From: an uncultured Eubacteriales bacterium
GTDB taxonomy: Bacteria > Bacillota > JAAYKD01
Length of the DNA stretch: 64,000 bases
Reading direction: 5' to 3'
Assembly: GCA_964425745.1 (NCBI GenBank)
Contig: CAYRNW010000004.1
Location: 67,833 to 131,832 of the forward strand
Positions 24,462 to 60,201 of this stretch are shown piece after piece (the stretch's first letter is position 1; each line of letters opens with the position of its first letter). Position numbers and translations under genes: made by a program. The notes below the pieces were generated by a model. It was given only the letters and a program-made list of their open reading frames with translations. It was not told the origin of the DNA and ran no database searches.

Positions 24462-24484
24462 GGTGTGTTCCTCCTAACTCCTCT

Positions 24485-43859: not shown

Positions 43860-43901
43860 CTTACACCTCAATTTAAGACACATTAAAAACATTAATTGGA
43901 T

Positions 43902-45061: not shown

Positions 45062-45355
45062 CTACTTAGTCACAACTAATGGCAAAGCTTTCAAATAGCC
45101 GCATGGCACGGGGTAATATGCACATCTTCTTGAAATCTCGACCTGATTGATGTAATATATTTCCAAATCGGGATTATATGGATCTGAAGCCCCGCACATA
45201 CCGCAAAAAACACAGTAGCATGTAGTTTCACCAGGTACTACTAATTGTGCTGCCATACAATCCATTCCACAAGGATTAGCATTTGCAAATGCAAGAGAAC
45301 TAAGCATAATACTGAAAACAATAGTAAACGAGAGCATCCTAGTCAATTTCGACAT
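45062..45355 (-). CDS. Sec-signal small secreted protein with 8 Cys (about 70 aa mature), paralog 1
   Basis: Start at MSKLTRM (RBS GGAAAGGGGA) and a signal peptide ending AFA/NA. Mature part 'C..C..C.C..CG.C...PY.PDL...Y.N.VE..R.C.Y.PVPCG..K' is shared with 55032-55310. Confidence 0.6.
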   Translation of the reverse strand: MSKLTRMLSFTIVFSIMLSSLAFANANPCGMDCMAAQLVVPGETTCYCVFCGMCGASDPYNPDLEIYYINQVEISRRCAYYPVPCGYLKALPLVVTK

Positions 45356-45823: not shown

Positions 45824-46597
45824 CTAGATCTCATCCAAACTTTTTAATTCGTGACGTTCGCGCATGGATTTCTTGCCTTGAATCATAATCTCAACAGCAT
45901 TGTGAACAATACGATCCATAATGGCATCTGAGATAGGGCTGCTACTTTCAGAGTTAGCATTCATTCGCTCATACCAATCATTGGTATCGTACTGGGTGCA
46001 GAAAATTGTAGAGCCACCAGAGCAGCGAGTTTCAATGATTTCAAGTAGATTGTAGGACTCTTGTAGGGTGAGACTGCGAATAAGCCATTCATCCAAAATC
46101 AACAAGTCAACTTTTTTGTTACTCTTAATGACTTTCTTAAATTCTCCTGCGATTTGTGCCAAGCTTAGTTCTTCCAATAGTTCAGGTAAGCGGATATAAC
46201 GCACTGTTTTAAACTTTCTACATGCTGCATTACCCAATGCACAAGCCAGATATGTTTTACCATTTCCAGAAGCACCTTTGAGAATAATGTGGTGTCCTCC
46301 CTCCATGTATTTACAAGTGGAGAAGCGAATAATTTGTCCCTTATCTAAACGACGATCCTCGTGGTATTCAATCCCTTCAATGGTTGCACCTGGAATGGCG
46401 AAATGTGCGTTGCGAATGAAGCGCAACAATTTATTTCGTTGTCTTTGATTCCATTCCGAATCGACAAGTAGTGAAAGCCTTTCCTCAAAACCTAATTGGT
46501 TATAGGAGCGTGGATCCTGCATTTGTATTTCGAACTCAGAAGCCATGGCACTAAACCGAATTACTCGAAGTAACTCGACCGTAGATTGGTTGATCAT
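45824..46597 (-). CDS. istB: IS21-family transposition helper ATPase IstB
   Basis: 'ILKGASGNGKTYLACALG' Walker A. Start at MINQSTVELL, overlapping the istA 3' end. Confidence 0.8.
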   Translation of the reverse strand: MINQSTVELLRVIRFSAMASEFEIQMQDPRSYNQLGFEERLSLLVDSEWNQRQRNKLLRFIRNAHFAIPGATIEGIEYHEDRRLDKGQIIRFSTCKYMEGGHHIILKGASGNGKTYLACALGNAACRKFKTVRYIRLPELLEELSLAQIAGEFKKVIKSNKKVDLLILDEWLIRSLTLQESYNLLEIIETRCSGGSTIFCTQYDTNDWYERMNANSESSSPISDAIMDRIVHNAVEIMIQGKKSMRERHELKSLDEI

Positions 46598-46958
46598 TGT
46601 GGTTACCTCCTTTTCGGAAGTAATCAGCTCCATGGGTAATGCCCTGTTTGTTCGGAATTGTCTCTTGTGTAGTAACCTGAACTTTATCCTGTCCATTTTT
46701 CAAGATTGTCGTAAGGGTTCGAATGCTTGGTGTTTGTGTAAATGCCAAGAGACGTTCGCAAGCTTTCTCCAGTCGCTTCGCTCCATACCGTTCGGAGAGC
46801 TTAATCAAGCTGGCACATGCCTTGAAACCCTGCTCAACTTCTCTCCCCAAAGAAAGGAAATATTGCATAACCGCAGCTGTTTTTGGTCCTACTTCAAGAC
46901 TCCAAGCTGTAAAACTTTCACTGTTGTAGGTTAAAAATTTCTTGTGTTCAGGTGTCAT
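46551..46958 (-). pseudogene. istA: IS21 transposase IstA, C-terminal fragment only
   Basis: About 135 aa in the usual IS21 overlap arrangement with istB. The catalytic N-terminal two-thirds are missing. Confidence 0.55.
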
Positions 46959-46979: not shown

Positions 46980-47711
46980 CTACTTCATATTAACTTCCAC
47001 TTCTTCAATCTTGCCATCCTTGAGTTTAACAACCCGATCAGCAATTTCAGCGACCTCGGGGTTGTGTGAAGCTACGATCACCGTCATTCCTTCTCGATTG
47101 AGTTTCTGCATGAGATCGAGCACCATTTTGTGATTTGCACTGTCAAGATTGCCAGTGGGTTCATCAGCTAACAACAAAGAAGGCTGGTTCATCATTGCTC
47201 GGGCTATTGCTACCCGTTGCTCTTGTCCACCCGATAATTCTCCCGGAAAATGTTGCATACGATCACCTAAGTCTACCTGACGCAGCAACTCCATGGCGCG
47301 CTCTTGGACTTCTTTTTGGGGTTTGAGCTTAGTCACATATTTTGCCGGTTGCATTACATTCTCCAAAGCGGTTTTGTCTTCAAGTAAGTTATAGTCCTGG
47401 AAGATGAAGCCGATTTTTTCAGCCCGAAATGCAGATAGCTTTTTGTCATTCGTACTAGATAAGTAGCCCAAGCTTTCGGTTCCGGCCAGCATTTCATTTT
47501 CAAAACGATAGCTACCTTCCTCAGGTTGTAGCAACGTCCCCAACAAATAAAGGAAGGTTGACTTACCGCTACCAGAGGGTCCCCACAAAGTAATCCATTC
47601 GCCACGGCGAACTTCTAGATTTGCCTGATCGAGTGCACGAATTTCTACCTCGCGCTTATGATAAATCTTACTCATATCTTTGACTGTCAGTAATGGACGA
47701 TATCCTTCCAT
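46980..47711 (-). CDS. ABC transporter ATP-binding protein (MacB/LolD/FtsE type), copy 2
   Basis: Over 90% identical to copy 1 at protein level. The C-terminus diverges ('EEVEVNMK'). Confidence 0.9.
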
Positions 47712-48900: not shown

Positions 48901-48919
48901 ATGTTGATAACCACCTTCC

Positions 48920-51487
48920 TTACAGCAAATCTCCGGGTTCTTTTCGCGAGAATGCCACTGCCGGTAACCAAGATGCAAAAATTGCACTCCCTATACATAA
49001 CAGGAAGGGTCCGAAAATCAGGATTACCGCTTCGCTTGTATACCACAAAGTCTGACCTGAGGTTGTTTGTTGCAGTAGTGAAAGTCCAGTTGCCAATACT
49101 CCTGCTACTACAAAAGGAAAACCAGTACGCTTCATCAGTTGACGAATGATTTGTTTGGCAGTCGCACCCATGGTTCTTTGGATTCCGGTGTATTTGGAAA
49201 TCTCGCGTGTTTTTACTATGGTGAAAGCAAATAACCCGAAACAGGTTTGTAAAACTAGCATACCAATGAGAAACCATGAAGTCAGCATGACACTGTGCTG
49301 CATGTCCAGAGTACGCTGTAAATCAAACGAAGGTTCAATGACTTTTATATCGGGTGTCTCGCGGTATTTTTCACTGAGTTGCTCATGCAATTCCTGGATC
49401 CTACCGTAGTCACTATTCCTAATAATGAGTAGCGGTGCCACTTTGTTTTGCCAAAACGTGTCTTTGTTCTTTTCATCCGTGGCATAGATACTGAGTAATG
49501 GATAACCTAATTCGGGCCGCTCCATGTACTCACCCAGTGTGACAATTCCTACAATTCGTTTACTCTCTCTCGTCCCGTAGCTGGGGAATTGCATCACTTT
49601 CCCTAAAGCCTCTTCTGCTGAGCCAAACAATGTCTCTGCTAGTTCTTCCCCTACTGCAATTTCCTCGTATTCTTGTGGCCAATAACCCTGACTCACCAAC
49701 AATCCTTGAGATTCTTGGTAATGACCGGCGGTGACCACCAAGTTGGTGGTAAATTGCATACCATCTACATAAAAACTAAATCTCGGATACGTTCCCTGCC
49801 AGCCTATACTCTCTTCTTCTACCCCTAGCCCGGTGAGTTTATATATGATTTCGCTGGGTAAATGATCTTCGTTTACCTTATGAATACTTTGAATTTGTAT
49901 CATATCAAACTGAGAGGTTCGTAGTTTTGCTTCCAGTTTAGCTGTTTCCATAATGGTAGACCAGGTGCTTTGTTGTATGACGACAATCAATAAAAAGAAA
50001 GTCACAACACTAAGCTCGCGCCGGAAATCAATTTTACCCCATTGGAATCGTGATTTCCCTTTTATGGCATCAATCGGACTCTGACCCAAAACAAAGAACG
50101 AACAAATTACACTACTGAACGGGGCGAAGCTCAAGGTGATGATTAGAAACGGAACGAGCGAACTGATTTGAAAGACATACCGGATGCCCAGAAAATGGTA
50201 GCACATATTTAGCACCAACCACAACCCGGGTATGGATATGCAAGCCGCTCCTAACGAAAGGTTCAAATAGTTCTTAGCATACTCCAACTCGATTTGGTCG
50301 GTGCCCGAACCCATGGAACGGCGAATAGCTATGGCCTTTCTTTCCTGATACAAATGCAACATAAGTAAAGAAGTAATGAGAAGCATGGAAATACCGACCA
50401 TGGACATAAACAACTGAATGAGAGGTTGCAATTCTTCGTTATCCATACCAATTTTAAGAGGTGGTATGAGTTCCACAGGGATTGAATAAACCTCACCTTG
50501 AAAGCGATCTTCAAAGGTATCGAGGATCTTTCGCAGAGTTAATGAGATGTTCTCTTTTGAATCAATCTTAACCAGCAAGTAGTTATACGGTTCTGGGTTA
50601 AAAAATTCTCTGGCAAGGGTTTCTTCTTTGCTTCCTTCTATATAATAACCAACATGCTCATTGGAATTTCGTTTCACCCAAAATTCCTCCATAGTAACCA
50701 GCATCCTTGGTAAAGCAAAATGCAACCCAGCGTTGCTTCGGGCTATAAAATTTTGATCACTCGCATAGTCAAAGTAAACAAGCTCATCCCCAGGAAGCGG
50801 TTTCACCGGATTAGAGATCCATTTTAAGGAGGACATGACGATTTGAGGATATTCTTTTTCGACTGATACCGGTGAATCTGGTTTGAAATTCAAAAACTCC
50901 ACATATGTCCCTGCAAAATCAAATCCTTTAGTGTCATAAATATTGTTCAGGGTTGATCCAATCTCCCATTGGTGAAGTTGAGATACAGCTGCACCTAAAA
51001 CAGCCCAATTTTGGTCGAGTTCATCTGGTAAACGATCCGTCTCAGATGCCATCTGCATAATTCTGAAATAGCTGGGTTCAACAAATATCGAAGGAACAGA
51101 TTTCCTGAAAACCATAGAACCTGAAGAGGTTTCAATTCTCTTGTCTGGCTCATAGTGCATCAAATATTCGCGATTGTTGGCTACTAATGAAACTTCTTCC
51201 ACATGATCAATTTCGAGAACCAACTTTTTATCATCTGAGGAAAAAAACTCTACGGGTGTTACCTTGGAATTATAATTCCATCCAATGGCATACACTAAGG
51301 TCTGGTCTTCCTTTTTTTCGTTTTCTAATTGAACCTCAACCCCATTACTTAAGCTTGCGGCTGCCATGACACAAATCTCGAACAAGAGTATGCTTACAAG
51401 CAAAATCATCGTGATAACTTTACTAATTGGCTCTTTTATCTTGAAACGATAAACCATTTGCTTAATCCTGGTTAGTTTCATCGGCAT
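48920..51487 (-). CDS. ABC transporter permease, tandem FtsX-like, copy 2
   Basis: 855 aa. The central TM block is nearly identical to copy 1. Confidence 0.8.
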   Translation of the reverse strand: MPMKLTRIKQMVYRFKIKEPISKVITMILLVSILLFEICVMAAASLSNGVEVQLENEKKEDQTLVYAIGWNYNSKVTPVEFFSSDDKKLVLEIDHVEEVSLVANNREYLMHYEPDKRIETSSGSMVFRKSVPSIFVEPSYFRIMQMASETDRLPDELDQNWAVLGAAVSQLHQWEIGSTLNNIYDTKGFDFAGTYVEFLNFKPDSPVSVEKEYPQIVMSSLKWISNPVKPLPGDELVYFDYASDQNFIARSNAGLHFALPRMLVTMEEFWVKRNSNEHVGYYIEGSKEETLAREFFNPEPYNYLLVKIDSKENISLTLRKILDTFEDRFQGEVYSIPVELIPPLKIGMDNEELQPLIQLFMSMVGISMLLITSLLMLHLYQERKAIAIRRSMGSGTDQIELEYAKNYLNLSLGAACISIPGLWLVLNMCYHFLGIRYVFQISSLVPFLIITLSFAPFSSVICSFFVLGQSPIDAIKGKSRFQWGKIDFRRELSVVTFFLLIVVIQQSTWSTIMETAKLEAKLRTSQFDMIQIQSIHKVNEDHLPSEIIYKLTGLGVEEESIGWQGTYPRFSFYVDGMQFTTNLVVTAGHYQESQGLLVSQGYWPQEYEEIAVGEELAETLFGSAEEALGKVMQFPSYGTRESKRIVGIVTLGEYMERPELGYPLLSIYATDEKNKDTFWQNKVAPLLIIRNSDYGRIQELHEQLSEKYRETPDIKVIEPSFDLQRTLDMQHSVMLTSWFLIGMLVLQTCFGLFAFTIVKTREISKYTGIQRTMGATAKQIIRQLMKRTGFPFVVAGVLATGLSLLQQTTSGQTLWYTSEAVILIFGPFLLCIGSAIFASWLPAVAFSRKEPGDLL

Positions 51488-51504
51488 TGCAATTCACCTT
51501 TCTC

Positions 51505-52578
51505 TTAAGGTTGCCTTGTCTTCAGAACCTCGATAATCTGATGATACACATAGGTTGATTCATCTTCTATAGGAACTAACTTATTTTCGCAAGTCCATTG
51601 AGCTATCAATAGCCCGTTTGTATCTAGTAGATAGATAATACATTTGCTTGTCGCCTTATCCTTAGAAAAGCGATTTGTGATTTCGAGGTTCATATCCTCG
51701 TACCATGTGATGTTGTGCCATCTTTTTTTTAATGTTGTTAGAGCAGTTGGGTATTCTTCTACTAGTTTCTCCCAATCCTGATACATTCTTTCTCGTGATT
51801 CTGTTAATTCTATGTCAGGTCTCTGTTCAACTAGCTCTTTCAATAACGGGAAATAGCGATATGGGAAAAACGAGTTTACAACAGGCACGACACGATAAGG
51901 CTGCACAGATAATTCATCGATTAAGCGGTAGATTGGTTCTTCATTACCCCATATTTCAAATTCAATCAATAATGTAGGTTGATCTATTGTTAGAATGACT
52001 TTTTCATGGTCAATAGGCATACTAAGCGGTAATTCTTCAACAGAGTAAGGGTTGTTTATTAGTAACTTGAAATACTCAAAATCAATACCCGGTTGAAGGT
52101 TCAACCATTGATCAACGATGATGCCCTTAGATATTCTCCATAATTTTGGGTAATAAGATTCGCCAACCCGCTTATTCTTATATACCTTTTCGAGTTCGTT
52201 ACTCTCAATTTTTCGTAATGTTATATTAGATTGTTCAAGCAAATATTCATACAAATTGTGTGCTTCATCATCATTAGGAAGGTTTTCATAGAGAATAGTT
52301 AGTGACTTATCTGAAAAGGCGTTCGAAAATTCCTTCACCATTATGTTACTTGTTCCAAATTGAAAGGAATATGTTAACAAGATGAACTCATTATCGATTT
52401 CTTTTATGGGAAAACCATCTCCCACCTTGGTACTAACGTGAGCTAGATTCGACAATTCTTCAGTTGTTAACGGCGATAAAACCATGCGTTTGATTCCAGA
52501 TAGCTCATTTTGTTTTGTTTCAACCACTTCCTGAGACGAACAACCAATGATCAACACAAATATGCCTATATATAGCAA
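51505..52578 (-). CDS. lipoprotein, distant member of family A (start codon uncertain)
   Basis: 'IIGC' lipobox. Shares 'GDGFPIKEIDNEFILLT' and C-terminal blocks with family A. An upstream in-frame AGGAGGTG RBS suggests an earlier non-ATG start. Confidence 0.4.
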   Translation of the reverse strand: MLYIGIFVLIIGCSSQEVVETKQNELSGIKRMVLSPLTTEELSNLAHVSTKVGDGFPIKEIDNEFILLTYSFQFGTSNIMVKEFSNAFSDKSLTILYENLPNDDEAHNLYEYLLEQSNITLRKIESNELEKVYKNKRVGESYYPKLWRISKGIIVDQWLNLQPGIDFEYFKLLINNPYSVEELPLSMPIDHEKVILTIDQPTLLIEFEIWGNEEPIYRLIDELSVQPYRVVPVVNSFFPYRYFPLLKELVEQRPDIELTESRERMYQDWEKLVEEYPTALTTLKKRWHNITWYEDMNLEITNRFSKDKATSKCIIYLLDTNGLLIAQWTCENKLVPIEDESTYVYHQIIEVLKTRQP

Positions 52579-52645
52579 AAGTAGTTTAATGAATTTTGAC
52601 CTTTTCGTAATCTCACCTCCTGAAGACTTGTTATAATCCGTCTTG

Positions 52646-53749
52646 TTATTTAGCTAAATCTAACGGATTTTCATATCCTTCAAATAGATTCTTGCCTTCA
52701 GGATTTACCAAAGTAATCACCCTAGCATGTTTTAAACAGCCATTCTCATCTGTGATTACCATGAAAGGATAACCAATTTCAACGAAATTCTTTTTCAAAT
52801 CACCAAGGCTGTCCTTTAAAACAGTAAAGTCATCACCTAACAATTCAATATAAGCTTTAACCTTTTCGCGCATTCCCAAATCCCATTGTTGCATTTGTGT
52901 TAGGAGTTCCTCATCTACTATAACTTGAGGGAAAGAATCCTTGAAATTTTCAATTGAGTCTGAATAGTATGAACTATCATCAATAATAATCGTCGGCTTT
53001 ACTTTCCAATCAGATTGTTTTATCCATGGTATTATATCAGAACATATTGAGCACGTCGGTGATAAAAACAAATAGCATTGTTTACCATTTGTATTAAGCT
53101 CGATTTCATGGTCTGTTTCATCAAAAAGGCTCAAAATCGGAAATTTCTCTCCCTCAATAAATGATGATTTTGTAATGCCTATGTGTTTTTTTGAGCTCAT
53201 GATTTCGTTAATCTCTGGCCAATCTTGAAATCTGATATTCGCTTTCTTATATTCTACAATTCCATCTTTAATATAGTAAATTGCAGGAAAAGAACCAATT
53301 GACCATTTATTCAACATATTATCGTCATAATAAATTATTTCTGTATCTTCCGAAAGACCATTTATTATCTGATCTAACATTGAAGAATTTTCTTCCGTCC
53401 TTGCAGGGAGCAAAGAAGTAATGTCTTTGATTTCATTCTGGTAGCATAACTGTACTATCATTGTGGTAATCAAATCCAAAGTTCCATTCAAAACCAAAAT
53501 ATAGCCTTCATTAGATTTTTCCGGATAGAGTTCCTGGGTTTTTATTTTACCATTTAGCTCTTCTAGCAGACCATCAGTAAATTTTTTACTTGTAGCAACT
53601 AAAAACTCCTTATTATCATAGCCACTTTTAACTTTAAGATCGTTAACTCTAAAATGACAGGCGCTTAGTAAAAAGCAAATCAATATCAAAATAAAAAAGG
53701 TTTTCGGTTTTTCACTTCTTCTTCTGTTTGCTCGCAACACATCAATCAC
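52646..53749 (-). CDS. family-B thioredoxin-like CxxC lipoprotein, copy 2
   Basis: 'LSAC' lipobox and a 'LFLSPTCSICSD' CxxC motif. Confidence 0.5.
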   Translation of the reverse strand: MIDVLRANRRRSEKPKTFFILILICFLLSACHFRVNDLKVKSGYDNKEFLVATSKKFTDGLLEELNGKIKTQELYPEKSNEGYILVLNGTLDLITTMIVQLCYQNEIKDITSLLPARTEENSSMLDQIINGLSEDTEIIYYDDNMLNKWSIGSFPAIYYIKDGIVEYKKANIRFQDWPEINEIMSSKKHIGITKSSFIEGEKFPILSLFDETDHEIELNTNGKQCYLFLSPTCSICSDIIPWIKQSDWKVKPTIIIDDSSYYSDSIENFKDSFPQVIVDEELLTQMQQWDLGMREKVKAYIELLGDDFTVLKDSLGDLKKNFVEIGYPFMVITDENGCLKHARVITLVNPEGKNLFEGYENPLDLAK

Positions 53750-53764
53750 CTCTAATTGCCCAAC

Positions 53765-54931
53765 TTATTTCAACTCAGTTATTGCTTGCTCCAAAATAGT
53801 CAGCATTTCATATCTGTCTTCTTGATTCCCCAAAGTCATGCGGCACTGCCAGTCTTTAACCAAGATACTTTTTGCATTGAACAGGTAGAACGAATAAAGC
53901 ATAACTCCACGGTCCTCTCCTTTCATCAACGAGTAATGCAGAATCTGTAAAGAATTCAGCCTACGTATCATTTCGTGATTTTGATCTTCATATATCTTCA
54001 ACTCGGGATATAGTTTCATTATATTGTTGATGTTACTTAGTTCAACTGATGTTTGGTTTTTCATACTTTCAATATATTTCCATTCAATTCTATCTTCAGC
54101 ATCATAAGACGATGCTAAAGCTTCTAAAAGCACAGGATAACGAGTGCGAATATCTGTTGTCTTAAGCACCAGAAATATCTGCACCTTGTTCTGAAAATAG
54201 TCTAAGAAGGTTTGTAGCAATGCATTTGAATTCTCAAATGACCAAAGAATAAGCAGAGTTGGCCGGTCTATTTGAACCAGTTCTCTCTCTTGACCTCGTG
54301 CCTGAACCAAATATAATTTTTGCAAGGGTTGTCCAACTTGAATCGGCGAAATCATGGAATCATCGTTTGTGAAGTGCTCATATATATCTGCATATTGACC
54401 GACTACATAATAAAGATATTGATTTTGGATAATACCCTTCTCTATTTGCCAAACTGCTGGATGATAGTATTTTTCAATTTCAATATAATCTTCATCAAAA
54501 CCCAAACTAATCAAACCATTTCTATCAATCTTAACAATCTCAACATTTGTTGGGAGTTGAATCTTATCAAAGAATGAATTAGAAGCAGGAGATACTAATC
54601 CGGCAATTAAGATAGTTATTGGGGCTAAATCAGATAGTTGCAAAAGTTCACGCATACATAACTCTTCATAGAGATTTGGTCCCCCTGTAGTAAGTATTAT
54701 ATACCCATCTGTTAAGCCCTTAATTGGAAACTCGCTGTTTACTACTGTGTCAATGTATTGATGCTGTTTTACTCTTTCTTCTTGCGATAAAGGTTTTAAG
54801 ACACTCCATAATTTCGGTTCCTCAATGTTCTCCTTAGGTGTCACATTTTTCATTGATTGACACCCACTGAGTAATACTATTAAGAACACTATTAGTGTGA
54901 CGAAAGCATTGTTATAGATGGAGTGCTTCAT
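53765..54931 (-). CDS. family-A lipoprotein, copy 3
   Basis: 'LLSGCQS' lipobox. C-terminus 'RMTLGNQEDRYEMLTILEQAITELK' parallels copies 1 and 2. Confidence 0.55.
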   Translation of the reverse strand: MKHSIYNNAFVTLIVFLIVLLSGCQSMKNVTPKENIEEPKLWSVLKPLSQEERVKQHQYIDTVVNSEFPIKGLTDGYIILTTGGPNLYEELCMRELLQLSDLAPITILIAGLVSPASNSFFDKIQLPTNVEIVKIDRNGLISLGFDEDYIEIEKYYHPAVWQIEKGIIQNQYLYYVVGQYADIYEHFTNDDSMISPIQVGQPLQKLYLVQARGQERELVQIDRPTLLILWSFENSNALLQTFLDYFQNKVQIFLVLKTTDIRTRYPVLLEALASSYDAEDRIEWKYIESMKNQTSVELSNINNIMKLYPELKIYEDQNHEMIRRLNSLQILHYSLMKGEDRGVMLYSFYLFNAKSILVKDWQCRMTLGNQEDRYEMLTILEQAITELK

Positions 54932-55031
54932 TTCATTATCATCTCCAATTCTCGAGAATAAGTAATTCGCTTTATGTATATAATGACTAATTTACGCACG
55001 TTAGGTTTGTATAGCCATGCTGGAGATTATA

Positions 55032-55310
55032 CTACCTACTCGGCAATTCCATACCTTTTATCCAACCACAAGGTACTGGTCTATATGTGCAGTATCTGTT
55101 TACCTCAACATAGTTTTGATAAACTACAGCTAGATCAGGAGTGTAAGGTTCATATGAGCACCACCCGCAAAGTGTACATACACAATAGGTGTTATCGGCA
55201 TTACAATCTACTACATCAGCAATGGCGCACATTGGATTGGCAAGAGCAAAAGACGAAAATAGTGTGGACAACAATCCAAACAACATTATTATAATCAAAT
55301 ATTTTTTCAT
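55032..55310 (-). CDS. Sec-signal small secreted 8-Cys protein, paralog 2
   Basis: Start at MKKYLII (RBS AAAGGAGA). Signal peptide ends ALA/NP. Cys pattern is conserved with paralog 1. Confidence 0.6.
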   Translation of the reverse strand: MKKYLIIIMLFGLLSTLFSSFALANPMCAIADVVDCNADNTYCVCTLCGWCSYEPYTPDLAVVYQNYVEVNRYCTYRPVPCGWIKGMELPSR

Positions 55311-55490
55311 TTTCTTTTCTCCTTTTATTAAATCCAGCATGGCTATCTATCAATGCTGGTGAAATACCTAAAGTTAACTCCAGCATATCAAGCGAAAAAC
55401 TTATTCACCAGGTTTTCCTCACATAAACCCAACATACTTTAGTGAGTAAGGATACTATGCTATTATACGAACTCTATATTTAACCGTTAT

Positions 55491-56543
55491 TTAGTTAAAT
55501 AAGCCGAACAATCCAGTAACGAAAAGATAAAACCCCAGGCTCAGTGTAATTGCACGAGCAAAAGTGTTAAGATATTGGTTTTTGAGCTGGCCTTGCACAA
55601 TCAGTGCGTTTTTACCAAAAAACATTAACAGAATAATCAAAACCATGGGTAATGCAAAGGCTGCGTTATATAAAACAAGGCGCCATAAATAACCTGTTGT
55701 ATCTTTCGTAGATATGTAATATATGGTTGGTAGGTAGATTTGACCTGTACAGATAAATTCAAACATTGAACTACATAAGCCGATAATAAACACGGACAGC
55801 AGCCCAATACTTCTTGCTCTCAAATTGCCAATCACTTTACCTAATTTCAGCTTGACTTTATTCCCTTTTCCCTGATTACTTCCAATAGAAGATATCACTA
55901 AGAGTAACCCCATCAAAATATAAATGAATGGTGCTGCAACACGCAGGAAGTCAAATCTCACAACTAATTGTCCTAATCCAATACCCAATAGGAAATAAAC
56001 AGATGTCACTCCGAAAACAAATACGAGCCCACATTGTAATAATCTATCTCTGTCTTTGTTGGCTATAATCGCTAACAATATCAACAACACATTGAGAGTG
56101 CATGGATTTAAGCCATCAGAAAGACCTGCCACAAAAACCCCCCATTCAGTCAAGGAGCTTACTGTTACACTATCTTTTGAGGATCCCCCCGATAGAAATG
56201 CTTTGAGGCTATCTTCATCCGAAAATCCGATTTGAGCATTATCCCCATAAAAGAATGCAGGGACTTGACCAGCCAGCGATGGCGCTTTATCGCAATCAAC
56301 CAATAATTGCATCATGAGAGATAAACTTCCGGGATCTTGAATATTATATTTTTCAACCGCAAGACCGTCTGCTTCGAGCTTTTCAACTATTGGCTCTGCC
56401 TGCTGGCAACTGCTACAGTAGGGTGAATAGAAGAAAAATAGTGTTGTTTCTTCCTTTGCATTACCCTGAGCTTTGCTAAAAATCAGTGGAGAAAAGGTGC
56501 TGCATAAAATCAAGCAAAGAAAAAATACTTTGAACCTTCTCAC
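55491..56543 (-). CDS. thioredoxin-like domain fused to a CcdA/DsbD-family thiol-disulfide membrane transporter
   Basis: N-terminal 'FFFYSPYCSSCQQ' CxxC. Membrane domain carries the CcdA hallmark 'GLNPCTLNVL' and a second Cys ('FICTGQ'). Confidence 0.7.
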   Translation of the reverse strand: MRRFKVFFLCLILCSTFSPLIFSKAQGNAKEETTLFFFYSPYCSSCQQAEPIVEKLEADGLAVEKYNIQDPGSLSLMMQLLVDCDKAPSLAGQVPAFFYGDNAQIGFSDEDSLKAFLSGGSSKDSVTVSSLTEWGVFVAGLSDGLNPCTLNVLLILLAIIANKDRDRLLQCGLVFVFGVTSVYFLLGIGLGQLVVRFDFLRVAAPFIYILMGLLLVISSIGSNQGKGNKVKLKLGKVIGNLRARSIGLLSVFIIGLCSSMFEFICTGQIYLPTIYYISTKDTTGYLWRLVLYNAAFALPMVLIILLMFFGKNALIVQGQLKNQYLNTFARAITLSLGFYLFVTGLFGLFN

Positions 56544-56619
56544 ATTCTTCCCTCCTAAACAGAAGCCAAAATAATTTTAATTCATCAAATAGCATTTGCA
56601 TAAAATCAAATCTACTATA

Positions 56620-56647
56620 ATTATATGCCTGTTCAAAATGGTTTCAA
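56620..56647 (-). promoter_or_regulatory. sigmaA-like promoter (TTGAAA, 16 nt, TATAAT) upstream of the trx-ccdA gene
   Basis: Read from the minus strand. The -35 abuts the 18-bp perfect palindrome at 56646-56687. Confidence 0.45.
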
Positions 56648-56714
56648 TAGTAAGATGTTACTAATTGAGTAGTAACATCTTACTATTTCTACACTAAACG
56701 AGTCTAACTTGGGG

Positions 56715-56912
56715 TTACTTCTTCATCTTACCCGCTATGAGCGAGGCCACATATACCACTCCGGCTAAGACAATAAGTGGAATCATGACATAAGCAGAGG
56801 TTACCTTAAAAAACACATTAACAATGAGAATGACCAAAAGGATGACAAGCACCAGTCCTGTTAGTTTTTCCTGCAAGGGCGAGAAACGGTAAGGATGTCT
56901 GGGTTCTGGCAT
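56715..56912 (-). CDS. small 2-TM membrane protein (65 aa)
   Basis: ORF between permease 3 and the trx-ccdA promoter. Supported only by hydrophobicity and position. Confidence 0.3.
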   Translation of the reverse strand: MPEPRHPYRFSPLQEKLTGLVLVILLVILIVNVFFKVTSAYVMIPLIVLAGVVYVASLIAGKMKK

Positions 56913-56931: not shown

Positions 56932-59601
56932 TTACATTAGGTTTGCAGGCGGAATTTTGGCAAAGCGTTGTGCCGGTTGCCAAGCCGCCAAGATACACAA
57001 GAGCATAGATACTACTATGGGGATTAAGGTAACTATATAATCTCTAGGATACACTTGCGAAAGCCCTTGATCTGCAAAAAACACACCAAAGCCGAAAATA
57101 CACCCTAGTAAAGCAGCCGGTAAGAACGGCCAAATCGATTCAATGAAGATAGCCCGGGCAATTTGGGCTTGAGTTGCCCCGAGAGAACGTTGGATCGCTA
57201 CTACACGGGCTAATTCTCTGGTGCGAATCAAGGTAAACGAGAGAACCGCAATCCCGATTTGTAAGACCTCCAACAAGATGAACATCCACACGGTATAAAG
57301 GAAGGTTTTCTGCAATTGGCGAGTTTGTTCTAAGTCATAAAGCTTTTCTTTGATCTTCAACAAGGGAACACTCGACTGATTCAACCAGTTCTGCAAGGCG
57401 GCTCTGGCGTCTTGGATTCGGTTGAAGTCCTCACTGCGAAGAATAATGAGGGGCTTTAGGACCTCCTTCCAGATGCTACTATCGTTTGCTTGGGAACTCA
57501 TAAATACTGTTGCATTGGGGTTGTCTAAATTGGGACGTTCTACATCTTCTTTGGCATCGACTACTCCTACGACTGTATAAGGTGAACCCTGGGGTTGGAA
57601 ACGTAGGGTTTGCCCCAAAGCAAGCTGTGAGGTTCCAAACAATGCTTTGGCTATTTGGTTACCTAATACCACCTCTTGCGGCCTTTGTATCCAATTACCG
57701 TGTAGCAAATTCAAACTTTGAGCGTTCAAAGTATCTCCCTGGCAAAGTGATAGGTATGCTATGTATTTCTCTTGTTCCAGCCACAGACTTGCTTGCGGCA
57801 CGGTTCCCTGCCAAGCCAAACCCTCTACATCGATACCTAAGTTTGCGATGATTTGCAAATATGCCGGAGGTAAGTGGTCTTGACCCGTATTTCTAACGCT
57901 TTCCAGCGTGACCCGGTCGAAACCGGCTTGCCGTATTTGATTGTCTACCACGTTCATATCTTTTAAGGCGGTTAAGCTACTGTAGGTGACCACAGCAATG
58001 ACCACCAAGAAAGTTGCCCAAACCAAGTCTCGGCGGAGATCGAAAATCCACCATTTCATACTCTTATCGCCCGATACTACCGCCATGGGCTCATATTTCA
58101 AAATGAAAAACAGAGGTAAGAAACTGCAAGTGGGACCCAAAAACACGGTGAGGGGGAGCATGGTGACGATGGTGTCTGGAGAAAGATACGAAATAATGCT
58201 GAACTGGCTCTGCACCAGAATTAAGAACATGTAGACTAATATCACCGATAAAACATTCGCAGGCACACTTAAGCGCAGATATTGTAGAAAGTATTCCAAC
58301 TCGATTTCGGCTTCGGTGGAGCCCAGGGAGCGTTTCATGGCGATGTTTTTTCTTTCCTGAAAGCCATGCATGGTGACAAGAGCTAACATGAGTAACAACG
58401 AAACAGCAGCCAGGTTATAACTAACTTTCTTTAAGGGAACAATGGACTCCTCAGTCATAGCAACCACACCGCGAGTGCCGCTATCGATTTGAATCGCTTT
58501 CACTTTATCTCCGTAAAGAGGGCGCAGATACTTCAGAATGGCTTCTACCGTGGTTTCGGCATGCTCCGCCGAGTCGATTCGGACAAATAAGTAGTTATAA
58601 GGTTTCTCGAAACCGTAGCCAATGTCTTTTTGCATACTATAGTCGGGGATATCGTTGTAGATTTCCCACTTTTTGAAGATGTATTCTTGTATGGATTTCG
58701 ATTCGTAGAGACCTTCACCACCTGGCCCAGTCCATGGTTCATAATCCAACAAAGGTTCTGTCCTTTGGCTGTATACTTCTTTGAATTCCTCCCACGTCAC
58801 ATAGACTGTAGGGGCACGCTTGGGCAGGCGGGCAATACGAGCTCCTAGATCTTCATCGCTGCCATAATCCAAATATGCATAATGATCATACTTGGTCAGC
58901 AAATCTTCCTCTTGCCTGTAAACCAGGCTGCCCAACACTGTTTGCGGGTATTGCTCGTTTAAGGGAATGAGTGGATCTGGTTGGAAGTTTTTCCTCTCTT
59001 CTCTAACCTGATCCGGTGTTCCGGAAAAGAAGGCTTGAAAACCATAACTGGCAAAAATTCTTTGAAAGGGTTCGCCAATTTCCCATGCGGTGCGTTGCTC
59101 TAGGGTCACACCTAAAACCGCCCAATCTTTATCGGTAAAAGTAGGTAAACGGCCTTTGTAGGTAGGATATTCGAAAACTTGGAAAAAACTCGGCTCAACA
59201 TAAGCAGCTTCTACCGTAAGCCAACGAGTCTCTGAATCTTCCTCACCAAAGGGGGATAAGTACCCCAATGGGTCCTCGAAAGCTTTCTCCGGAAAATAAG
59301 TGAATTTGGCATCGAGCGAGACCAGCGAAGCTGCTTTGACGTGCGAGATTTTCTCTACAGCTTCCCGGTCTTGGGTAGACATATACTCAATTTGGGGGGC
59401 ATCGTAATCGTAATCCCACGATACCATATAAATAATAGGGTTTTGCTGATCAAGCAAGCGGAATAGCCGCGTCTGCATGCCATCGCGTATAGCCGCGGAA
59501 AGCTGGAAGCAAAAACTAAACAAGAGGATGCTGCAAAAAAGAGCAATTAGAATCAGACGAGAAATAGGTTCCATGCGACGAAATTCCTGAATGCGTTTCA
59601 T
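56932..59601 (-). CDS. ABC transporter permease, tandem FtsX-like, copy 3 (divergent, no adjacent ATPase gene)
   Basis: About 890 aa with the same two-block architecture. ATG at MKRIQEF has RBS GAGGAGTG. The ORF-track start 59610 is a GTG a few codons upstream. Confidence 0.75.
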   Translation of the reverse strand: MKRIQEFRRMEPISRLILIALFCSILLFSFCFQLSAAIRDGMQTRLFRLLDQQNPIIYMVSWDYDYDAPQIEYMSTQDREAVEKISHVKAASLVSLDAKFTYFPEKAFEDPLGYLSPFGEEDSETRWLTVEAAYVEPSFFQVFEYPTYKGRLPTFTDKDWAVLGVTLEQRTAWEIGEPFQRIFASYGFQAFFSGTPDQVREERKNFQPDPLIPLNEQYPQTVLGSLVYRQEEDLLTKYDHYAYLDYGSDEDLGARIARLPKRAPTVYVTWEEFKEVYSQRTEPLLDYEPWTGPGGEGLYESKSIQEYIFKKWEIYNDIPDYSMQKDIGYGFEKPYNYLFVRIDSAEHAETTVEAILKYLRPLYGDKVKAIQIDSGTRGVVAMTEESIVPLKKVSYNLAAVSLLLMLALVTMHGFQERKNIAMKRSLGSTEAEIELEYFLQYLRLSVPANVLSVILVYMFLILVQSQFSIISYLSPDTIVTMLPLTVFLGPTCSFLPLFFILKYEPMAVVSGDKSMKWWIFDLRRDLVWATFLVVIAVVTYSSLTALKDMNVVDNQIRQAGFDRVTLESVRNTGQDHLPPAYLQIIANLGIDVEGLAWQGTVPQASLWLEQEKYIAYLSLCQGDTLNAQSLNLLHGNWIQRPQEVVLGNQIAKALFGTSQLALGQTLRFQPQGSPYTVVGVVDAKEDVERPNLDNPNATVFMSSQANDSSIWKEVLKPLIILRSEDFNRIQDARAALQNWLNQSSVPLLKIKEKLYDLEQTRQLQKTFLYTVWMFILLEVLQIGIAVLSFTLIRTRELARVVAIQRSLGATQAQIARAIFIESIWPFLPAALLGCIFGFGVFFADQGLSQVYPRDYIVTLIPIVVSMLLCILAAWQPAQRFAKIPPANLM

Positions 59602-59880
59602 TCTCCACACTCCTCATTCATGAAGTCTTCTAGAATCGTCGATATTTTCTATGCGATTTCCATTTTGTTTCATGTGCCTCTTTTTGATTATTTTTATCTC
59701 ATTGCATAATTCTGCATAATTTTCAAAACTCCTTCAAATGATTCTTCTTTTTTCATAATTTTATTTCGCACCGGGGTCAGACCCCGGTGCGAAATAAGGT
59801 GGGGTTTTGTGAGTTGGTTACTGAACTCAAAATGTTTATGGTGTATTCTTCATAACGATCAATACGAGGAGGACGATACC

Positions 59881-60201
59881 ATGTTTTCATTTTTGCAAAA
59901 GAGCACCGGCAAGACCATTCGCATGAACGATATTGACCCTTTGGTAGGCAAGGTAGAATTGCTAGACATCCGTGAGCCTTATGAGTACAAGGCCGGAACC
60001 TTAAAGACCGCTAAGAATGTTCCCATGAATGAACTGATGGCGAACCCAGACAAACATATGAAAAAAGGCACCACGTATTATCTATTCTGTCTGTCCGGAT
60101 CGCGGAGTCAGTTTGTATGCCGCAAACTTTCAGCCGAAGGTTATGATGTAATCAACATGCTGGGTGGCATGGGTGTTTACTGTGGAATCCATAAGGTTTA
60201 G
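59881..60201 (+). CDS. single-domain rhodanese (sulfurtransferase)
   Basis: Start at MFSFLQK (RBS GAGGAGGA). Active-site loop 'CLSGSRS'. Confidence 0.7.
   Translation: MFSFLQKSTGKTIRMNDIDPLVGKVELLDIREPYEYKAGTLKTAKNVPMNELMANPDKHMKKGTTYYLFCLSGSRSQFVCRKLSAEGYDVINMLGGMGVYCGIHKV

What the first reader, a model, noticed from the sequence alone, without database searches (positions are those of the whole stretch)
55491..56543. Dedicated extracytoplasmic thiol-redox set: Trx-CcdA fusion, two Trx-like lipoproteins (43902-44993, 52646-53749) and a rhodanese (59881-60201)
The CcdA/DsbD-type membrane electron conduit carries the 'NPC' motif and a second TM cysteine. It is fused to an N-terminal thioredoxin-like CxxC domain, and the two lipoproteins have a Trx-like 'S/TP(E/T)CSIC' active site. 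This is the reductive or isomerase arm of extracytoplasmic disulfide control, normally coupled to cytochrome c maturation or spore-coat proteins. Here it is embedded with Cys-rich secreted proteins, which points to a dedicated redox-maturation pathway. The single-Cys rhodanese could indicate persulfide or sulfur-transfer chemistry.
Basis: partly seen in the sequence, partly recalled or inferred. Interest (0 to 1): 0.65.

Follow-up and report, generated by a model that had tools for sequence, protein, structure and literature searches.

The report
Accessory cell-surface thiol-redox gene cassette
A strain-variable 5-kb gene cassette in an anaerobic digester Firmicute encodes a membrane electron conduit fused to a thioredoxin, thioredoxin-like lipoproteins and an orphan 8-cysteine secreted miniprotein, inserted into an ABC-transporter locus; it looks like a private cysteine-handling line for that miniprotein, and the neighbouring rhodanese is not part of it.

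Summary
ORF 55491-56543(-) has a signal peptide, a thioredoxin-fold CxxC domain (C43/C46) and a six-helix CcdA-like core. Its two invariant membrane cysteines (C148, C265) align with the catalytic cysteines of a bona fide CcdA (hhalign 95.9%, E 5e-9). The two "SP(E/T)CSIC" proteins are lipoproteins; the modelled C-terminal domain of one matches ResA/TlpA/Etrx-type reductases. All CxxC domains are predicted to face outward, and the window holds no cytochrome c biogenesis genes.

Four more paralogous lipoproteins lack the CxxC. The locus also has three duplicated MacB-type permeases and two ATPases. The redox genes form a low-GC 5.1-kb cassette that is absent or half-deleted in sister strains, which keep the transporter and the rhodanese. 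The 8-Cys proteins and CxxC lipoproteins are orphans among 5.8-15 billion proteins. The Trx-CcdA fusion belongs to a widespread, uncharacterised family of anaerobes. One distant Firmicute (42% identity) repeats the gene set.

Best reading: a CcdA→Trx→CSIC-lipoprotein reductive or isomerase relay serving the co-encoded Cys-rich exoproteins, possibly bacteriocin-like, with ABC handling or immunity. This is a new variant of the CcdA-Etrx/ResA theme. The rhodanese link is not supported.

The parts
55491..56543 (-). Trx-CcdA fusion, 350 aa: signal/anchor aa 1-26, thioredoxin-fold domain aa ~33-118 (CxxC C43/C46, cis-Pro candidate P95), six-helix CcdA-like core aa ~133-349 (C148 in 'NPC', C265 in 'FICTGQ')
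   Evidence: ORF. Invariant residues. AF2 mean pLDDT 79.9 with a beta-alpha-beta-alpha-beta-beta-alpha domain plus membrane helices. Foldseek hits to thioredoxins, TMt 0.6-0.7, rmsd 2.3-2.8 A. hhalign of the membrane-domain profile against a bona fide CcdA: 95.9%, E 5.3e-9, with both cysteines aligned. Positive-inside count.
55032..55310 (-). 8-Cys secreted miniprotein, 92 aa (about 67 aa mature; acidic, aromatic-rich; CxCxxCxxC plus four more Cys)
   Evidence: Only three clusters of this family in 5.8 billion proteins. Nothing further in 1.84 billion representatives.
53765..54931 (-). Lipoprotein, 388 aa, paralogue of the CxxC lipoproteins without CxxC ('WSFENSN' in place of 'SPTCSIC'); keeps an invariant W-x-C near the C-terminus
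   Evidence: Lipobox LSGC. Alignment A4. hhalign A3 vs A4: 94.5%, E 7.6e-8 over 318 columns.
52646..53749 (-). CxxC lipoprotein, 367 aa (SPTCSIC, C233/C236), with a ResA/TlpA/Etrx-like C-terminal thioredoxin-fold domain
   Evidence: AF2 C-terminal domain pLDDT 65-84, with a helix starting at the CxxC. Foldseek top hits DsbE/TlpA/ResA/StoA/CcmG/Etrx, E about 6e-5, TMt 0.55-0.62. P328 invariant. No Pfam or NCBIfam hit.
51505..52578 (-). Divergent lipoprotein paralogue, 357 aa, without CxxC; last gene of the low-GC cassette
   Evidence: GC profile.
56620..56700 (-). Cassette left border: hairpin after the 65-aa gene (shared with cassette-less strain L098), followed by the best promoter-like site of the region (TTGAAA-16-TATAAT, 56647-56620)
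56715..56912 (-). 65-aa hydrophobic membrane protein, part of the conserved transporter core
   Evidence: Present in L098, which lacks the redox genes.
56932..59610 (-). Duplicated MacB-type permease, 892 aa (two FtsX domains plus MacB_PCD)
   Evidence: Weak ADOP-family hit only.
48920..51487 (-). Duplicated MacB-type permease, 855 aa
47731..48903 (-). Non-CxxC lipoprotein paralogue (~390 aa)
46980..47711 (-). ABC ATPase, 243 aa, LolD/FtsE/MacB type
   Evidence: 93% identical to the 241-aa copy, which carries the LolD/FtsE/MacB-type NCBIfam hits.
45824..46958 (-). IS21-family remnant (IstB gene plus an upstream 135-aa ORF) separating module 1 from module 2
   Evidence: IstB_IS21, E 3.3e-43. 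Absent in strain L012.
45062..45355 (-). Second 8-Cys secreted miniprotein, 97 aa (module 2)
43902..44993 (-). Second CxxC lipoprotein, 363 aa (SPECSIC)
41289..43892 (-). Duplicated MacB-type permease, 867 aa (68% identical to the 855-aa copy)
40103..41269 (-). Non-CxxC lipoprotein paralogue, 388 aa
39358..40083 (-). ABC ATPase, 241 aa (93% identical to the 243-aa copy)
59881..60201 (+). Single-domain rhodanese, 106 aa, cytoplasmic, divergent; a neighbour, not a component
   Evidence: Retained at 99% identity next to the cassette-less locus L098.

Best explanation
The 5.1-kb low-GC cassette (about 51500-56645) is a self-contained extracytoplasmic thiol-disulfide relay serving its own Cys-rich cargo.

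**Proposed electron path (inferred)**
1. Electrons from cytoplasmic thioredoxin cross the membrane through the two-cysteine CcdA-type core (C148/C265).
2. They pass to the thioredoxin domain fused to its outer N-terminus (C43/C46).
3. They then pass to the membrane-anchored CSIC lipoproteins (C233/C236).
4. The lipoproteins reduce or reshuffle the cysteines of the co-encoded, Sec-exported 8-Cys miniproteins.

**Surrounding locus (inferred)**
The duplicated MacB-type permeases, LolD-like ATPases and CxxC-less Trx-like lipoproteins handle the same miniproteins at the outer face of the membrane. The role could be release, or producer immunity of the kind seen in bacteriocin loci.

**Shown here**
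- The folds, catalytic motifs and outward topology.
- The paralogy of the six lipoproteins.
- The recurrence of the gene association.
- The accessory nature of the cassette.

**Inferred only**
- The electron path and its direction.
- The identity of the substrate.
- The role of the transporter.
For: - **CcdA-type core.** Both membrane cysteines are invariant and align with the SPC/TPC cysteines of a CcdA encoded next to resB/ccsB.
- **Fused domain.** It has a thioredoxin fold with CxxC at the helix N-terminus. Family members hit Thioredoxin, Glutaredoxin and DSBA models.
- **Topology.** N-out, with K+R of 12 on inside loops and 3 on outside loops.
- **CSIC lipoproteins.** All have lipoboxes. 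The modelled C-terminal domain of the 367-aa one matches ResA/TlpA/StoA/CcmG/Etrx. Their CSIC motif is the same rare motif as in pneumococcal Etrx1, a lipoprotein reduced by CcdA1 (PMC3914529).
- **Recurring association.** An 8-Cys gene lies next to or near a CxxC lipoprotein gene and a MacB-type permease gene in both window modules and in L005-L008.
- **Distant recurrence.** In Firmicute L015 the Trx-CcdA is 42% identical and itself carries CSIC. The same set recurs there: a Trx-like lipoprotein, a secreted 7-Cys aromatic-rich protein, a permease, a lipoprotein and an ATPase.
- **A third lineage.** In L001 a secreted protein with a Cys-rich tail lies directly upstream of the homologue.
- **Accessory cassette.** It has its own promoter-like site and low GC. 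It is missing (L098) or partly deleted (L095) in sister strains that keep the transporter. Producer genes that vary while the transporter is kept is the pattern expected of bacteriocin-type loci.
- **ATPase.** It resembles LolD/MacB and lactococcin-972-type bacteriocin ABC ATPases.
Against: - No experiment or co-expression data link the parts.
- The 8-Cys proteins are acidic (net about -2 to -3), which is unusual for membrane-active bacteriocins. They have no detectable relatives.
- Module 2 and L005-L008 have an 8-Cys gene plus a CxxC lipoprotein but no Trx-CcdA. One conduit must serve both modules, or another ccdA exists elsewhere.
- Other close Trx-CcdA relatives (L004, L017) lack a transporter or a Cys-rich neighbour. 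The wider family has no conserved neighbour.
- The CxxC lipoprotein model is only moderately confident (mean pLDDT 51; C-terminal domain 65-84).
- The transporter core exists without the cassette (L098), so its primary role may be unrelated.
- The direction of the chemistry cannot be read from sequence.
Confidence: 0.45

Rival explanations
1. Surface repair or antioxidant line. The Trx-CcdA and CSIC lipoproteins form an Etrx-like system that keeps surface proteins (transporter ectodomains, lipoproteins) reduced after oxygen exposure. The 8-Cys proteins would be bystanders or sacrificial thiol buffers.
For: - It matches pneumococcal CcdA1-Etrx1 in motif (CSIC), lipoprotein anchoring and fold.
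- The wider Trx-CcdA family is a stand-alone gene in hundreds of anaerobes with no fixed partner, and AhpC/Redoxin neighbours occur occasionally.
- The non-CxxC lipoproteins keep one invariant cysteine that could need reduction.
Against: - No Msr or peroxiredoxin gene was found among the window ORFs scanned.
- The cassette is dispensable in sister strains.
- The repeated tight pairing of an 8-Cys gene with a CxxC lipoprotein gene is not explained.
Confidence: 0.15
2. Metal or cofactor loading. The 8-Cys miniproteins are extracytoplasmic metal-binding proteins (CxCxxCxxC). Their cysteines must be kept reduced, as TlpA does for ScoI/CoxB, and the ABC system moves the metal or the metalloprotein.
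For: - Four cysteines fall within nine residues, with four more conserved.
- The proteins are acidic and aromatic-rich rather than cationic.
- TlpA-ScoI complexes are among the structural matches of the lipoprotein.
- A CcdA-type conduit is reductive in all characterised cases (PMC3322552).
Against: - No metal-transport or chaperone family was detected in the locus.
- The Cys-rich proteins of L015 and L001 do not share the motif.
- There is no precedent for such a miniprotein.
Confidence: 0.12
3. Physical linkage only. A mobile cassette landed in a transporter locus, and the Trx-CcdA, lipoproteins, 8-Cys proteins and ABC system have unrelated jobs.
For: - The cassette has low GC and sharp borders.
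- An IS21 remnant lies between the modules.
- The transporter core exists alone in L098.
- Several Trx-CcdA relatives sit in unrelated contexts.
Against: - The same combination recurs in a lineage only 42% identical (L015).
- CxxC and non-CxxC lipoproteins are paralogues spread over both the cassette and the transporter core.
- The 8-Cys / CxxC-lipoprotein / permease order recurs three times.
Confidence: 0.12
4. Cytochrome c maturation (CcdA-ResA type) or spore-coat thiol reduction (StoA type).
For: CcdA-like core and ResA/StoA-like fold.
Against: - No ResB/CcsB/Ccm was found among the window ORFs scanned, or next to about 79 family members.
- The neighbouring proteins have no CxxCH.
- The gene is absent or truncated in sister strains.
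Confidence: 0.03

Closest known systems
CcdA1-Etrx1 (and CcdA2-Etrx2) surface thioredoxin pathway of Streptococcus pneumoniae (PMC3914529)
   Same: A CcdA-type conduit feeds an outward-facing, lipid-anchored ResA-like thioredoxin-fold protein. The rare proline-less CSIC active site is identical. The genes lie outside any cytochrome c cluster in a Firmicute.
   Different: - Here the conduit carries its own N-terminal thioredoxin domain.
- The lipoproteins are about 365 aa with an extra N-terminal domain and no sequence-detectable relatives.
- No MsrAB is encoded nearby.
- The partners are orphan 8-Cys exoproteins and MacB-type ABC systems.
- The set is a strain-variable cassette.
DsbD superfamily classes DsbD, CcdA and ScsB (PMC3322552)
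   Same: Two redox-active cysteines sit in the first and fourth membrane helices, and electrons are handed to a thioredoxin-like domain outside the membrane.
   Different: - The architecture is an N-terminal Trx/Grx domain plus a six-helix core. It has no immunoglobulin-like alpha domain and no C-terminal gamma domain.
- The TM4 motif is F-x-C-T-G-Q with no proline before the cysteine.
- The window protein misses the curated Pfam models.
- It belongs to a large, unstudied family of anaerobes and archaea (at least 563 species representatives).
CcdA-ResA (cytochrome c) and CcdA-StoA (spore cortex) pathways of Bacillus subtilis
   Same: A reductive relay from CcdA to a membrane-tethered ResA-like protein. 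ResA and StoA are among the best fold matches.
   Different: No haem-handling or sporulation partner is nearby. The active-site dipeptide differs, and the cassette is accessory.
Bacteriocin loci with dedicated thiol-disulfide enzymes or FtsX-type immunity transporters (sublancin bdbA/bdbB, own knowledge; lactococcin 972 cluster, PMC11161930)
   Same: A small exported peptide gene sits beside private redox enzymes and/or an FtsX-like permease plus a LolD-like ATPase. Producer genes vary between strains while the transporter is retained.
   Different: - No sequence membership: TIGR03608 scores 186 bits against a 255-bit cut-off, TIGR01654 scores 19.7 against 189, and there is no Lactococcin_972 hit.
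- The enzymes here are reductive-type (CcdA), not DsbB/BdbB-type oxidases.
- The peptides are acidic.

Membership tests
CcdA/DsbD superfamily (membrane thiol-disulfide electron conduit) | Two conserved cysteines, one in TM1 and one in TM4 | tested here: met
   C148 and C265 are invariant in 23 homologues. They align with the SPC and TPC cysteines of a CcdA encoded next to resB/ccsB.
CcdA/DsbD superfamily (membrane thiol-disulfide electron conduit) | Detectable homology to a bona fide CcdA | tested here: met
   hhalign of a 12-sequence membrane-domain profile against Sporosarcina CcdA: probability 95.9%, E 5.3e-9, 200 columns.
CcdA/DsbD superfamily (membrane thiol-disulfide electron conduit) | Match to the curated Pfam models DsbD_TM (PF02683) or DsbD_2 (PF13386) | tested here: not met
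   The window protein has no hit at E<0.1. Only 2 of 23 relatives hit DsbD_TM and 5 of 23 hit DsbD_2, all weakly (best 5.8e-5 and 8.9e-4). The profile finds no solved CcdA/DsbD by sequence.
CcdA/DsbD superfamily (membrane thiol-disulfide electron conduit) | Proline immediately before each catalytic cysteine (PC motifs) | tested here: not met
   TM1 has N-P-C. TM4 has F-I-C-T-G-Q, with the proline seven residues later.
CcdA/DsbD superfamily (membrane thiol-disulfide electron conduit) | Six-helix core with N- and C-termini outside | tested here: met
   This is a prediction only. AF2 gives helices across 133-349. A signal peptide sits at the N-terminus, and K+R counts are 12 on inside loops against 3 on outside loops.
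CcdA/DsbD superfamily (membrane thiol-disulfide electron conduit) | Accepts electrons from cytoplasmic thioredoxin | not testable with these tools
   Needs biochemistry.
Thioredoxin fold, CxxC class (N-terminal domain of the fusion) | Thioredoxin fold with CxxC at the N-terminus of helix 1 and a cis-Pro loop | tested here: met
   Strands 35-39, 63-67, 96-99 and 102-105; helix 44-58 starts at C43-S-S-C46; P95 precedes strand 3. Thioredoxin matches at rmsd 2.3-2.8 A.
Thioredoxin fold, CxxC class (N-terminal domain of the fusion) | Pfam Thioredoxin (PF00085) at the gathering score | tested here: not met
   18.2 bits against a 23.5-bit cut-off. Relatives reach E 2.9e-6.
ResA/TlpA/Etrx-type extracytoplasmic thiol-disulfide oxidoreductases (CxxC lipoproteins) | Thioredoxin-like fold with an N-terminal hairpin and a central insertion; CxxC at the helix start; cis-Pro | tested here: met
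   Moderate confidence only. The C-terminal domain has pLDDT 65-84, helix 234-245 follows C233/C236, and invariant P328 precedes strand 329-333. Foldseek E about 6e-5, TMt 0.55-0.62, to DsbE, TlpA, ResA, StoA, CcmG and Etrx1/2.
ResA/TlpA/Etrx-type extracytoplasmic thiol-disulfide oxidoreductases (CxxC lipoproteins) | Sequence match to the Redoxin, AhpC-TSA or Thioredoxin_8 models | tested here: not met
   No Pfam or NCBIfam hit. No homologues outside this lineage in 5.8 billion proteins.
ResA/TlpA/Etrx-type extracytoplasmic thiol-disulfide oxidoreductases (CxxC lipoproteins) | Outward-facing membrane anchor | tested here: met
   Lipoboxes LTSC and LSAC follow a hydrophobic N-terminus (read from the sequence).
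System II cytochrome c maturation cluster (CcdA-ResA-ResB-CcsB) | ResB/CcsB neighbours and CxxCH substrates | tested here: not met
   None among the window ORFs scanned. None next to about 79 family members. The 8-Cys proteins lack CxxCH.
Rhodanese as a component of the redox set | Co-occurs with the redox genes and shares their compartment | tested here: not met
   The rhodanese domain is real (PF00581, 45.8 bits). It has no signal peptide, lies on the opposite strand, and is kept at 99% identity in L098, which lacks all redox genes.
MacB-type (type VII) ABC transporter | FtsX four-helix domains with a MacB periplasmic core domain, plus a LolD/MacB-type ATPase | tested here: met
   All three permeases have two FtsX stretches. 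MacB_PCD is above the curated cut-off in the 892-aa and 855-aa copies and undetected in the 867-aa copy. ABC_tran, E 1e-31. LolD, FtsE and MacB are the top NCBIfam hits for the ATPase.
Lactococcin 972-type bacteriocin cluster | Lcn972-family precursor, TIGR01654 membrane protein, TIGR03608 ATPase | tested here: not met
   No precursor-family hit. TIGR01654 scores 19.7 bits against 189. TIGR03608 scores 186 against 254.85.

The most novel reading that the evidence does not exclude
The island is a complete production, maturation and handling unit for a previously unseen family of Sec-exported, eight-cysteine miniproteins of anaerobic Clostridia.

- A thioredoxin-CcdA fusion and CSIC lipoproteins act as a private disulfide-isomerase (or thiol-keeping) line for the miniproteins.
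- Catalytically dead thioredoxin-like lipoproteins have been recruited as substrate adaptors of duplicated MacB-type ABC transporters. The transporters release the miniprotein or protect the producer.

This would be the first case of a redox relay mechanically coupled to a type VII ABC transporter.
Probability: 0.25. Interest if true: 0.7.

Novelty: new variant of a known kind. Interest (0 to 1): 0.5.

Why it matters
CcdA-fed thioredoxin-like lipoproteins are known for three client classes: cytochromes c, spore cortex and methionine-sulfoxide repair. This locus would add a fourth, private Cys-rich exoproteins, in a strict-anaerobe setting where extracytoplasmic cysteine chemistry is poorly understood.

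It also gives a first functional foothold for two groups of proteins. One is a large unstudied family of Trx-CcdA fusions, with at least 563 species representatives, mostly anaerobic bacteria and archaea. The other is the thioredoxin-like pseudo-enzymes that pair with duplicated MacB-type permeases.

The natural strain series makes the question directly testable. It comprises the full cassette, a half-deleted cassette and no cassette.

Tried and rejected
- **Direct family scans of the fusion.** Pfam and NCBIfam gave only sub-threshold thioredoxin hits and no DsbD model. Homology had to be shown with a profile against an annotated CcdA.
- **Membrane-domain profile against PDB sequences.** Nothing found.
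- **Foldseek of the whole fusion against PDB.** The output was dominated by thioredoxins plus a spurious GPCR-fusion hit. No CcdA appeared in the top 50.
- **Locus search with the 23-sequence alignment.** I repeated it with the eight closest sequences.
- **Word-indexed protein search for the fusion.** It gave only 23 hits and suggested rarity. The genome scan corrected this: the wider family is common.
- **Automatic search for Cys-rich ORFs near 16 relatives.** Mostly noise from off-frame ORFs. Only L015 and L001 were convincing on inspection.
- **Metagenome scan.** It added no new close relatives with informative context.
- **HMMER search of the 8-Cys profile against 1.84 billion representatives.** Two extra hits appeared. 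The one inspected is a translated tandem repeat, and the other is weak and hits a 1159-aa protein. Both were rejected.
- **hhalign of the L015 lipoprotein pieces against the window lipoproteins.** Colinear but weak (E 1.7e-4 at 49% probability; E 0.006 at 6%). I treat this as suggestive only.
- **Rfam on 39-60.4 kb.** No match.
- **Promoter and terminator scan.** Counts were no higher than in shuffled sequence. I mention only the single best-placed site.
- **Readings considered and rejected.** Cytochrome c maturation, and rhodanese-mediated persulfide chemistry.
Full report
**1. What is at the coordinates**

The minus strand from 59610 down to 39358 is one dense block of genes. In order it encodes:
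- an 892-aa permease;
- a 65-aa membrane protein;
- the flagged 350-aa ORF (55491-56543);
- a 92-aa 8-Cys protein;
- three lipoproteins of 388, 367 and 357 aa;
- an 855-aa permease;
- a ~390-aa lipoprotein;
- a 243-aa ABC ATPase;
- an IS21 remnant;
- a second module with a 97-aa 8-Cys protein, a 363-aa lipoprotein, an 867-aa permease, a 388-aa lipoprotein and a 241-aa ATPase.

The rhodanese gene (59881-60201) lies on the other strand and is divergent.
- 'YCSSCQ', 'DGLNPC' and 'FEFICTGQIYLP' in the 350-aa protein;
- 'SPECSIC' and 'SPTCSIC' in the 363-aa and 367-aa proteins;
- eight cysteines in each small protein.

**2. The Trx-CcdA fusion**

Direct family scans are weak. Pfam Thioredoxin scores 18.2 bits, below its 23.5-bit cut-off, and no DsbD model hits.

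An alignment of 23 homologues shows N146-P147-C148 and C265-T266 as invariant. Across those homologues the N-terminal domain hits the Glutaredoxin, Thioredoxin and DSBA models. The membrane part hits DsbD_2 or DsbD_TM only weakly and in a minority.

An AlphaFold model built on that alignment is confident (mean pLDDT 79.9). It shows a beta-alpha-beta-alpha-beta-beta-alpha domain whose first helix begins at C43-S-S-C46, followed by membrane helices. Foldseek matches the domain to thioredoxins at 2.3-2.8 A.

A profile of the membrane domain finds no solved structure by sequence. I therefore fetched a textbook CcdA, annotated and encoded next to resB and ccsB on a Sporosarcina plasmid. hhalign gives 95.9% probability and E 5.3e-9 over 200 columns. 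'NPC' aligns with 'SPC', and 'FxCTGQ' aligns with 'TPCTGP'.

The protein is thus a remote but genuine relative of CcdA with both catalytic cysteines in place. It differs from canonical CcdA in two ways: there is no proline before the TM4 cysteine, and the curated models are not met.

**3. Topology**

The N-terminus is a Sec-type signal or anchor (RR-K, a hydrophobic stretch, then SKA|QG). The thioredoxin domain is acidic, with 15 D/E against 6 K/R. The loops predicted inside carry 12 K/R, and those predicted outside carry 3. This gives the N-out, C-out arrangement of CcdA.

All six lipoproteins have lipoboxes (LTSC, LSAC, LSGC three times, IIGC). Both kinds of CxxC domain therefore face outward.

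**4. The lipoproteins**

The two CSIC proteins are paralogues (E 4e-37). Their only relative in 5.8 billion proteins is the copy in the sister contigs L005-L008.

With only three sequences the AlphaFold model is poor overall (pLDDT 51). Its C-terminal domain is usable (pLDDT 65-84). It has a hairpin, a strand, a helix starting at the CxxC, and an invariant proline before the penultimate strand. Foldseek places this domain among DsbE, TlpA, ResA, StoA, CcmG and the pneumococcal Etrx lipoproteins (E about 6e-5, TMt 0.55-0.62).

The other four lipoproteins had no hit to anything. They are full-length paralogues of the CSIC proteins (hhalign 94.5%, E 7.6e-8, 318 columns). In them 'WSFENSN' replaces 'SPTCSIC', so they are redox-dead at the canonical site. 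They do keep one invariant cysteine (W-x-C) near the C-terminus.

**5. The 8-Cys proteins**

These have Sec signal peptides and mature parts of about 67-72 residues. The mature proteins are acidic and aromatic-rich. The eight-cysteine count is kept across three paralogues at 39-42% identity, and seven of the eight align as invariant columns; the N-terminal one is offset by an alignment gap.

Two searches found only this family: one of 5.8 billion clustered proteins and one full HMMER pass over 1.84 billion representatives. The two extra hits were rejected; the one inspected is a translated tandem repeat. The proteins have no CxxCH and no match to any Pfam or NCBIfam model.

**6. The transporter**

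The three permeases are duplicated MacB-type proteins, each with two FtsX domains. MacB_PCD is detected in the 892-aa and 855-aa copies and not in the 867-aa copy. They bear only a distant likeness to the ADOP duplicated-permease family. The ATPases are LolD/FtsE/MacB-like. They score below cut-off on the lactococcin-972 bacteriocin ABC model.

**7. Natural variation**

Contigs from the same species show the locus in four states.

| Contig | State |
|---|---|
| L009-L011, L013-L014 | Match the window at 100% over the shared region; L009 extends into module 2 |
| L012 | Lacks the IS21 remnant and module 2 |
| L095 | In-frame deletion fuses the thioredoxin domain of the fusion to the CSIC lipoprotein; the CcdA core, the 8-Cys gene and one lipoprotein are lost |
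| L098 | No Trx-CcdA, no 8-Cys gene and no CxxC lipoprotein; keeps the 892-aa permease (96%), the 65-aa gene, a permease, a lipoprotein, the ATPase (98%) and the rhodanese (99%) |

The junction is sharp. Both forms share a hairpin after the 65-aa gene and diverge right after it, near 56645. In the window the best promoter-like site of the region begins there (TTGAAA-16-TATAAT, 56647-56620).

GC is 0.335-0.378 inside 51-56 kb and 0.41-0.46 in the flanking genes. The redox genes therefore form a 5.1-kb accessory cassette set into a conserved transporter locus. The rhodanese does not travel with the cassette.

**8. Wider distribution**

The word-indexed search suggested the fusion was rare (23 hits). 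A scan of one genome per species found at least 563 relatives. They occur mostly in anaerobes, including Anaerolineae, Omnitrophota, Fibrobacterota, Peptococcaceae, Thermoplasmata and Methanomicrobiales. The best match is only 42% identical, so the source species is not among the representatives.

The immediate neighbours of about 79 of these relatives share no conserved partner and no ResB/CcsB. As a family, the fusion looks like a general outward-facing reductase module.

The closest genomic relative is the exception, the Firmicutes MAG UBA2296 (L015). There the fusion, itself carrying 'TPACSIC', follows five genes:
- a lipoprotein with weak colinear similarity to the window lipoproteins;
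- a secreted 7-Cys, W/Y-rich acidic protein;
- a MacB-type permease (E 2.7e-34 to the 892-aa protein);
- a lipoprotein;
- an ATPase (E 2.4e-68).

In another lineage (L001) a secreted protein with a Cys-rich tail sits directly upstream. Other close relatives (L004, L017) show no such context.

**9. Mechanism**

Characterised members of the DsbD superfamily use two membrane cysteines. They pass electrons from cytoplasmic thioredoxin to an outside thioredoxin-like partner (PMC3322552).

Pneumococcal Etrx1 is a lipoprotein with the same unusual CSIC site. It is reduced by CcdA1 and hands electrons to MsrAB2 (PMC3914529).

By analogy I propose this relay: cytoplasmic thioredoxin, then C148/C265, then C43/C46, then the CSIC lipoproteins, then the client. 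The most likely clients are the 8-Cys exoproteins, for four reasons:
- their genes are welded to CxxC lipoprotein genes in three independent arrangements;
- they are orphans that co-vary with the cassette;
- no Msr, peroxiredoxin or cytochrome partner is encoded nearby;
- Cys-rich exoproteins also sit by the fusion in two other lineages.

Eight cysteines exported unfolded by Sec would plausibly need reshuffling or protection.

The transporter and the dead-site lipoproteins may handle the same proteins. Sister strains keep the transporter but lack the producer genes, and the ATPase resembles bacteriocin-type ATPases. Both fit a bacteriocin-plus-immunity reading. The acidity of the peptides argues for caution.

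All steps beyond fold, motif, topology and gene association are inference. I put the overall model at about 0.45.

**10. Rivals**

| Rival | Confidence |
|---|---|
| Etrx-like surface repair line with bystander miniproteins | 0.15 |
| Thiol-keeping for metal loading (TlpA-ScoI style) | 0.12 |
| Mere physical linkage of a mobile cassette | 0.12 |
| Cytochrome c or spore-type maturation | 0.03 |

The first three remain open. The fourth is effectively excluded by context and dispensability.

**11. Novelty and verdict**

The kind of system is known: CcdA feeding an outward thioredoxin-like lipoprotein. Four things are new:
- the fused N-terminal thioredoxin on a divergent CcdA core;
- the orphan two-domain CSIC lipoproteins and their dead-site paralogues;
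- the orphan 8-Cys cargo;
- the embedding in duplicated MacB-type transporters as a strain-variable cassette.

I rate it a new variant of a known kind, with interest 0.5. The rhodanese and persulfide idea is not supported.

Noticed in passing
window 59758-59800 (+): A perfect 20-bp-stem palindrome (ATTTTATTTCGCACCGGGGTC...GACCCCGGTGCGAAATAAGGT) followed by GGGGTTTTGT. It sits in the divergent intergenic region between the 892-aa permease gene and the rhodanese gene. It has no Rfam match and no obvious gene to terminate.
   Followed up: partly
L095 5321-6727 (-), sister-strain contig: A 468-aa in-frame chimera. The signal peptide and thioredoxin domain of the Trx-CcdA fusion (to about residue 123) are joined to the CSIC lipoprotein. 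The deletion also removed the CcdA core, the 8-Cys gene and one lipoprotein. It is a natural 'half-cassette' strain.
   Followed up: partly
window 53765-54931, 40103-41269, 47731-48903, 51505-52578 (-): The four CxxC-less lipoprotein paralogues all keep one invariant cysteine in a W-x-C motif near the C-terminus (W361/C363 of the 388-aa protein). It could be a single redox-active or mixed-disulfide site.
   Followed up: no
window 45824-46958 (-): An IS21-family IstB gene (E 3e-43) with an upstream 135-aa ORF that has no family hit. It sits exactly between the two transporter modules. Strain L012 lacks it together with module 2, which suggests IS-associated duplication or acquisition of the second module.
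   Followed up: partly
window 37074-38375 (-) and 60395-61582 (+): AAA_14/DUF4143 ATPase genes flank the locus on both sides. The one at 60395 is absent in L095 and L098. Beside it, the HAD hydrolase (176 aa against 220) and an HTH-phosphoribosyltransferase (a 98-aa fragment against 287 aa) look truncated in the window.
   Followed up: partly
L001 9158-9850 (+): A 230-aa secreted protein with a C-terminal tail very rich in cysteine (CxxxC and CC repeats) lies directly upstream of a 36%-identical Trx-CcdA homologue. The pair sits downstream of an ATP synthase operon, with no transporter nearby.
   Followed up: partly
L015 1614-2015 (+): A 133-aa secreted, acidic, W/Y-rich 7-Cys protein with a proline-rich tail sits in the UBA2296 version of the locus. 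It is unrelated in sequence to the 8-Cys family but occupies the same position.
   Followed up: partly
window 15276-28776 (-): A Pel-like exopolysaccharide operon (PelG, a PelF-like glycosyltransferase with DUF3492, DUF2194, an epimerase-domain protein) with a CotH kinase-like protein and EAL-domain proteins. It appears unrelated to the finding.
   Followed up: no
window 62734-63372 (+) and downstream: A DUF6088 gene sits at the window end, with AbiEii following in the sister contigs (a toxin-antitoxin-like pair). Together with the low-GC cassette and the IS remnant, it marks the region as a variable genomic island.
   Followed up: no
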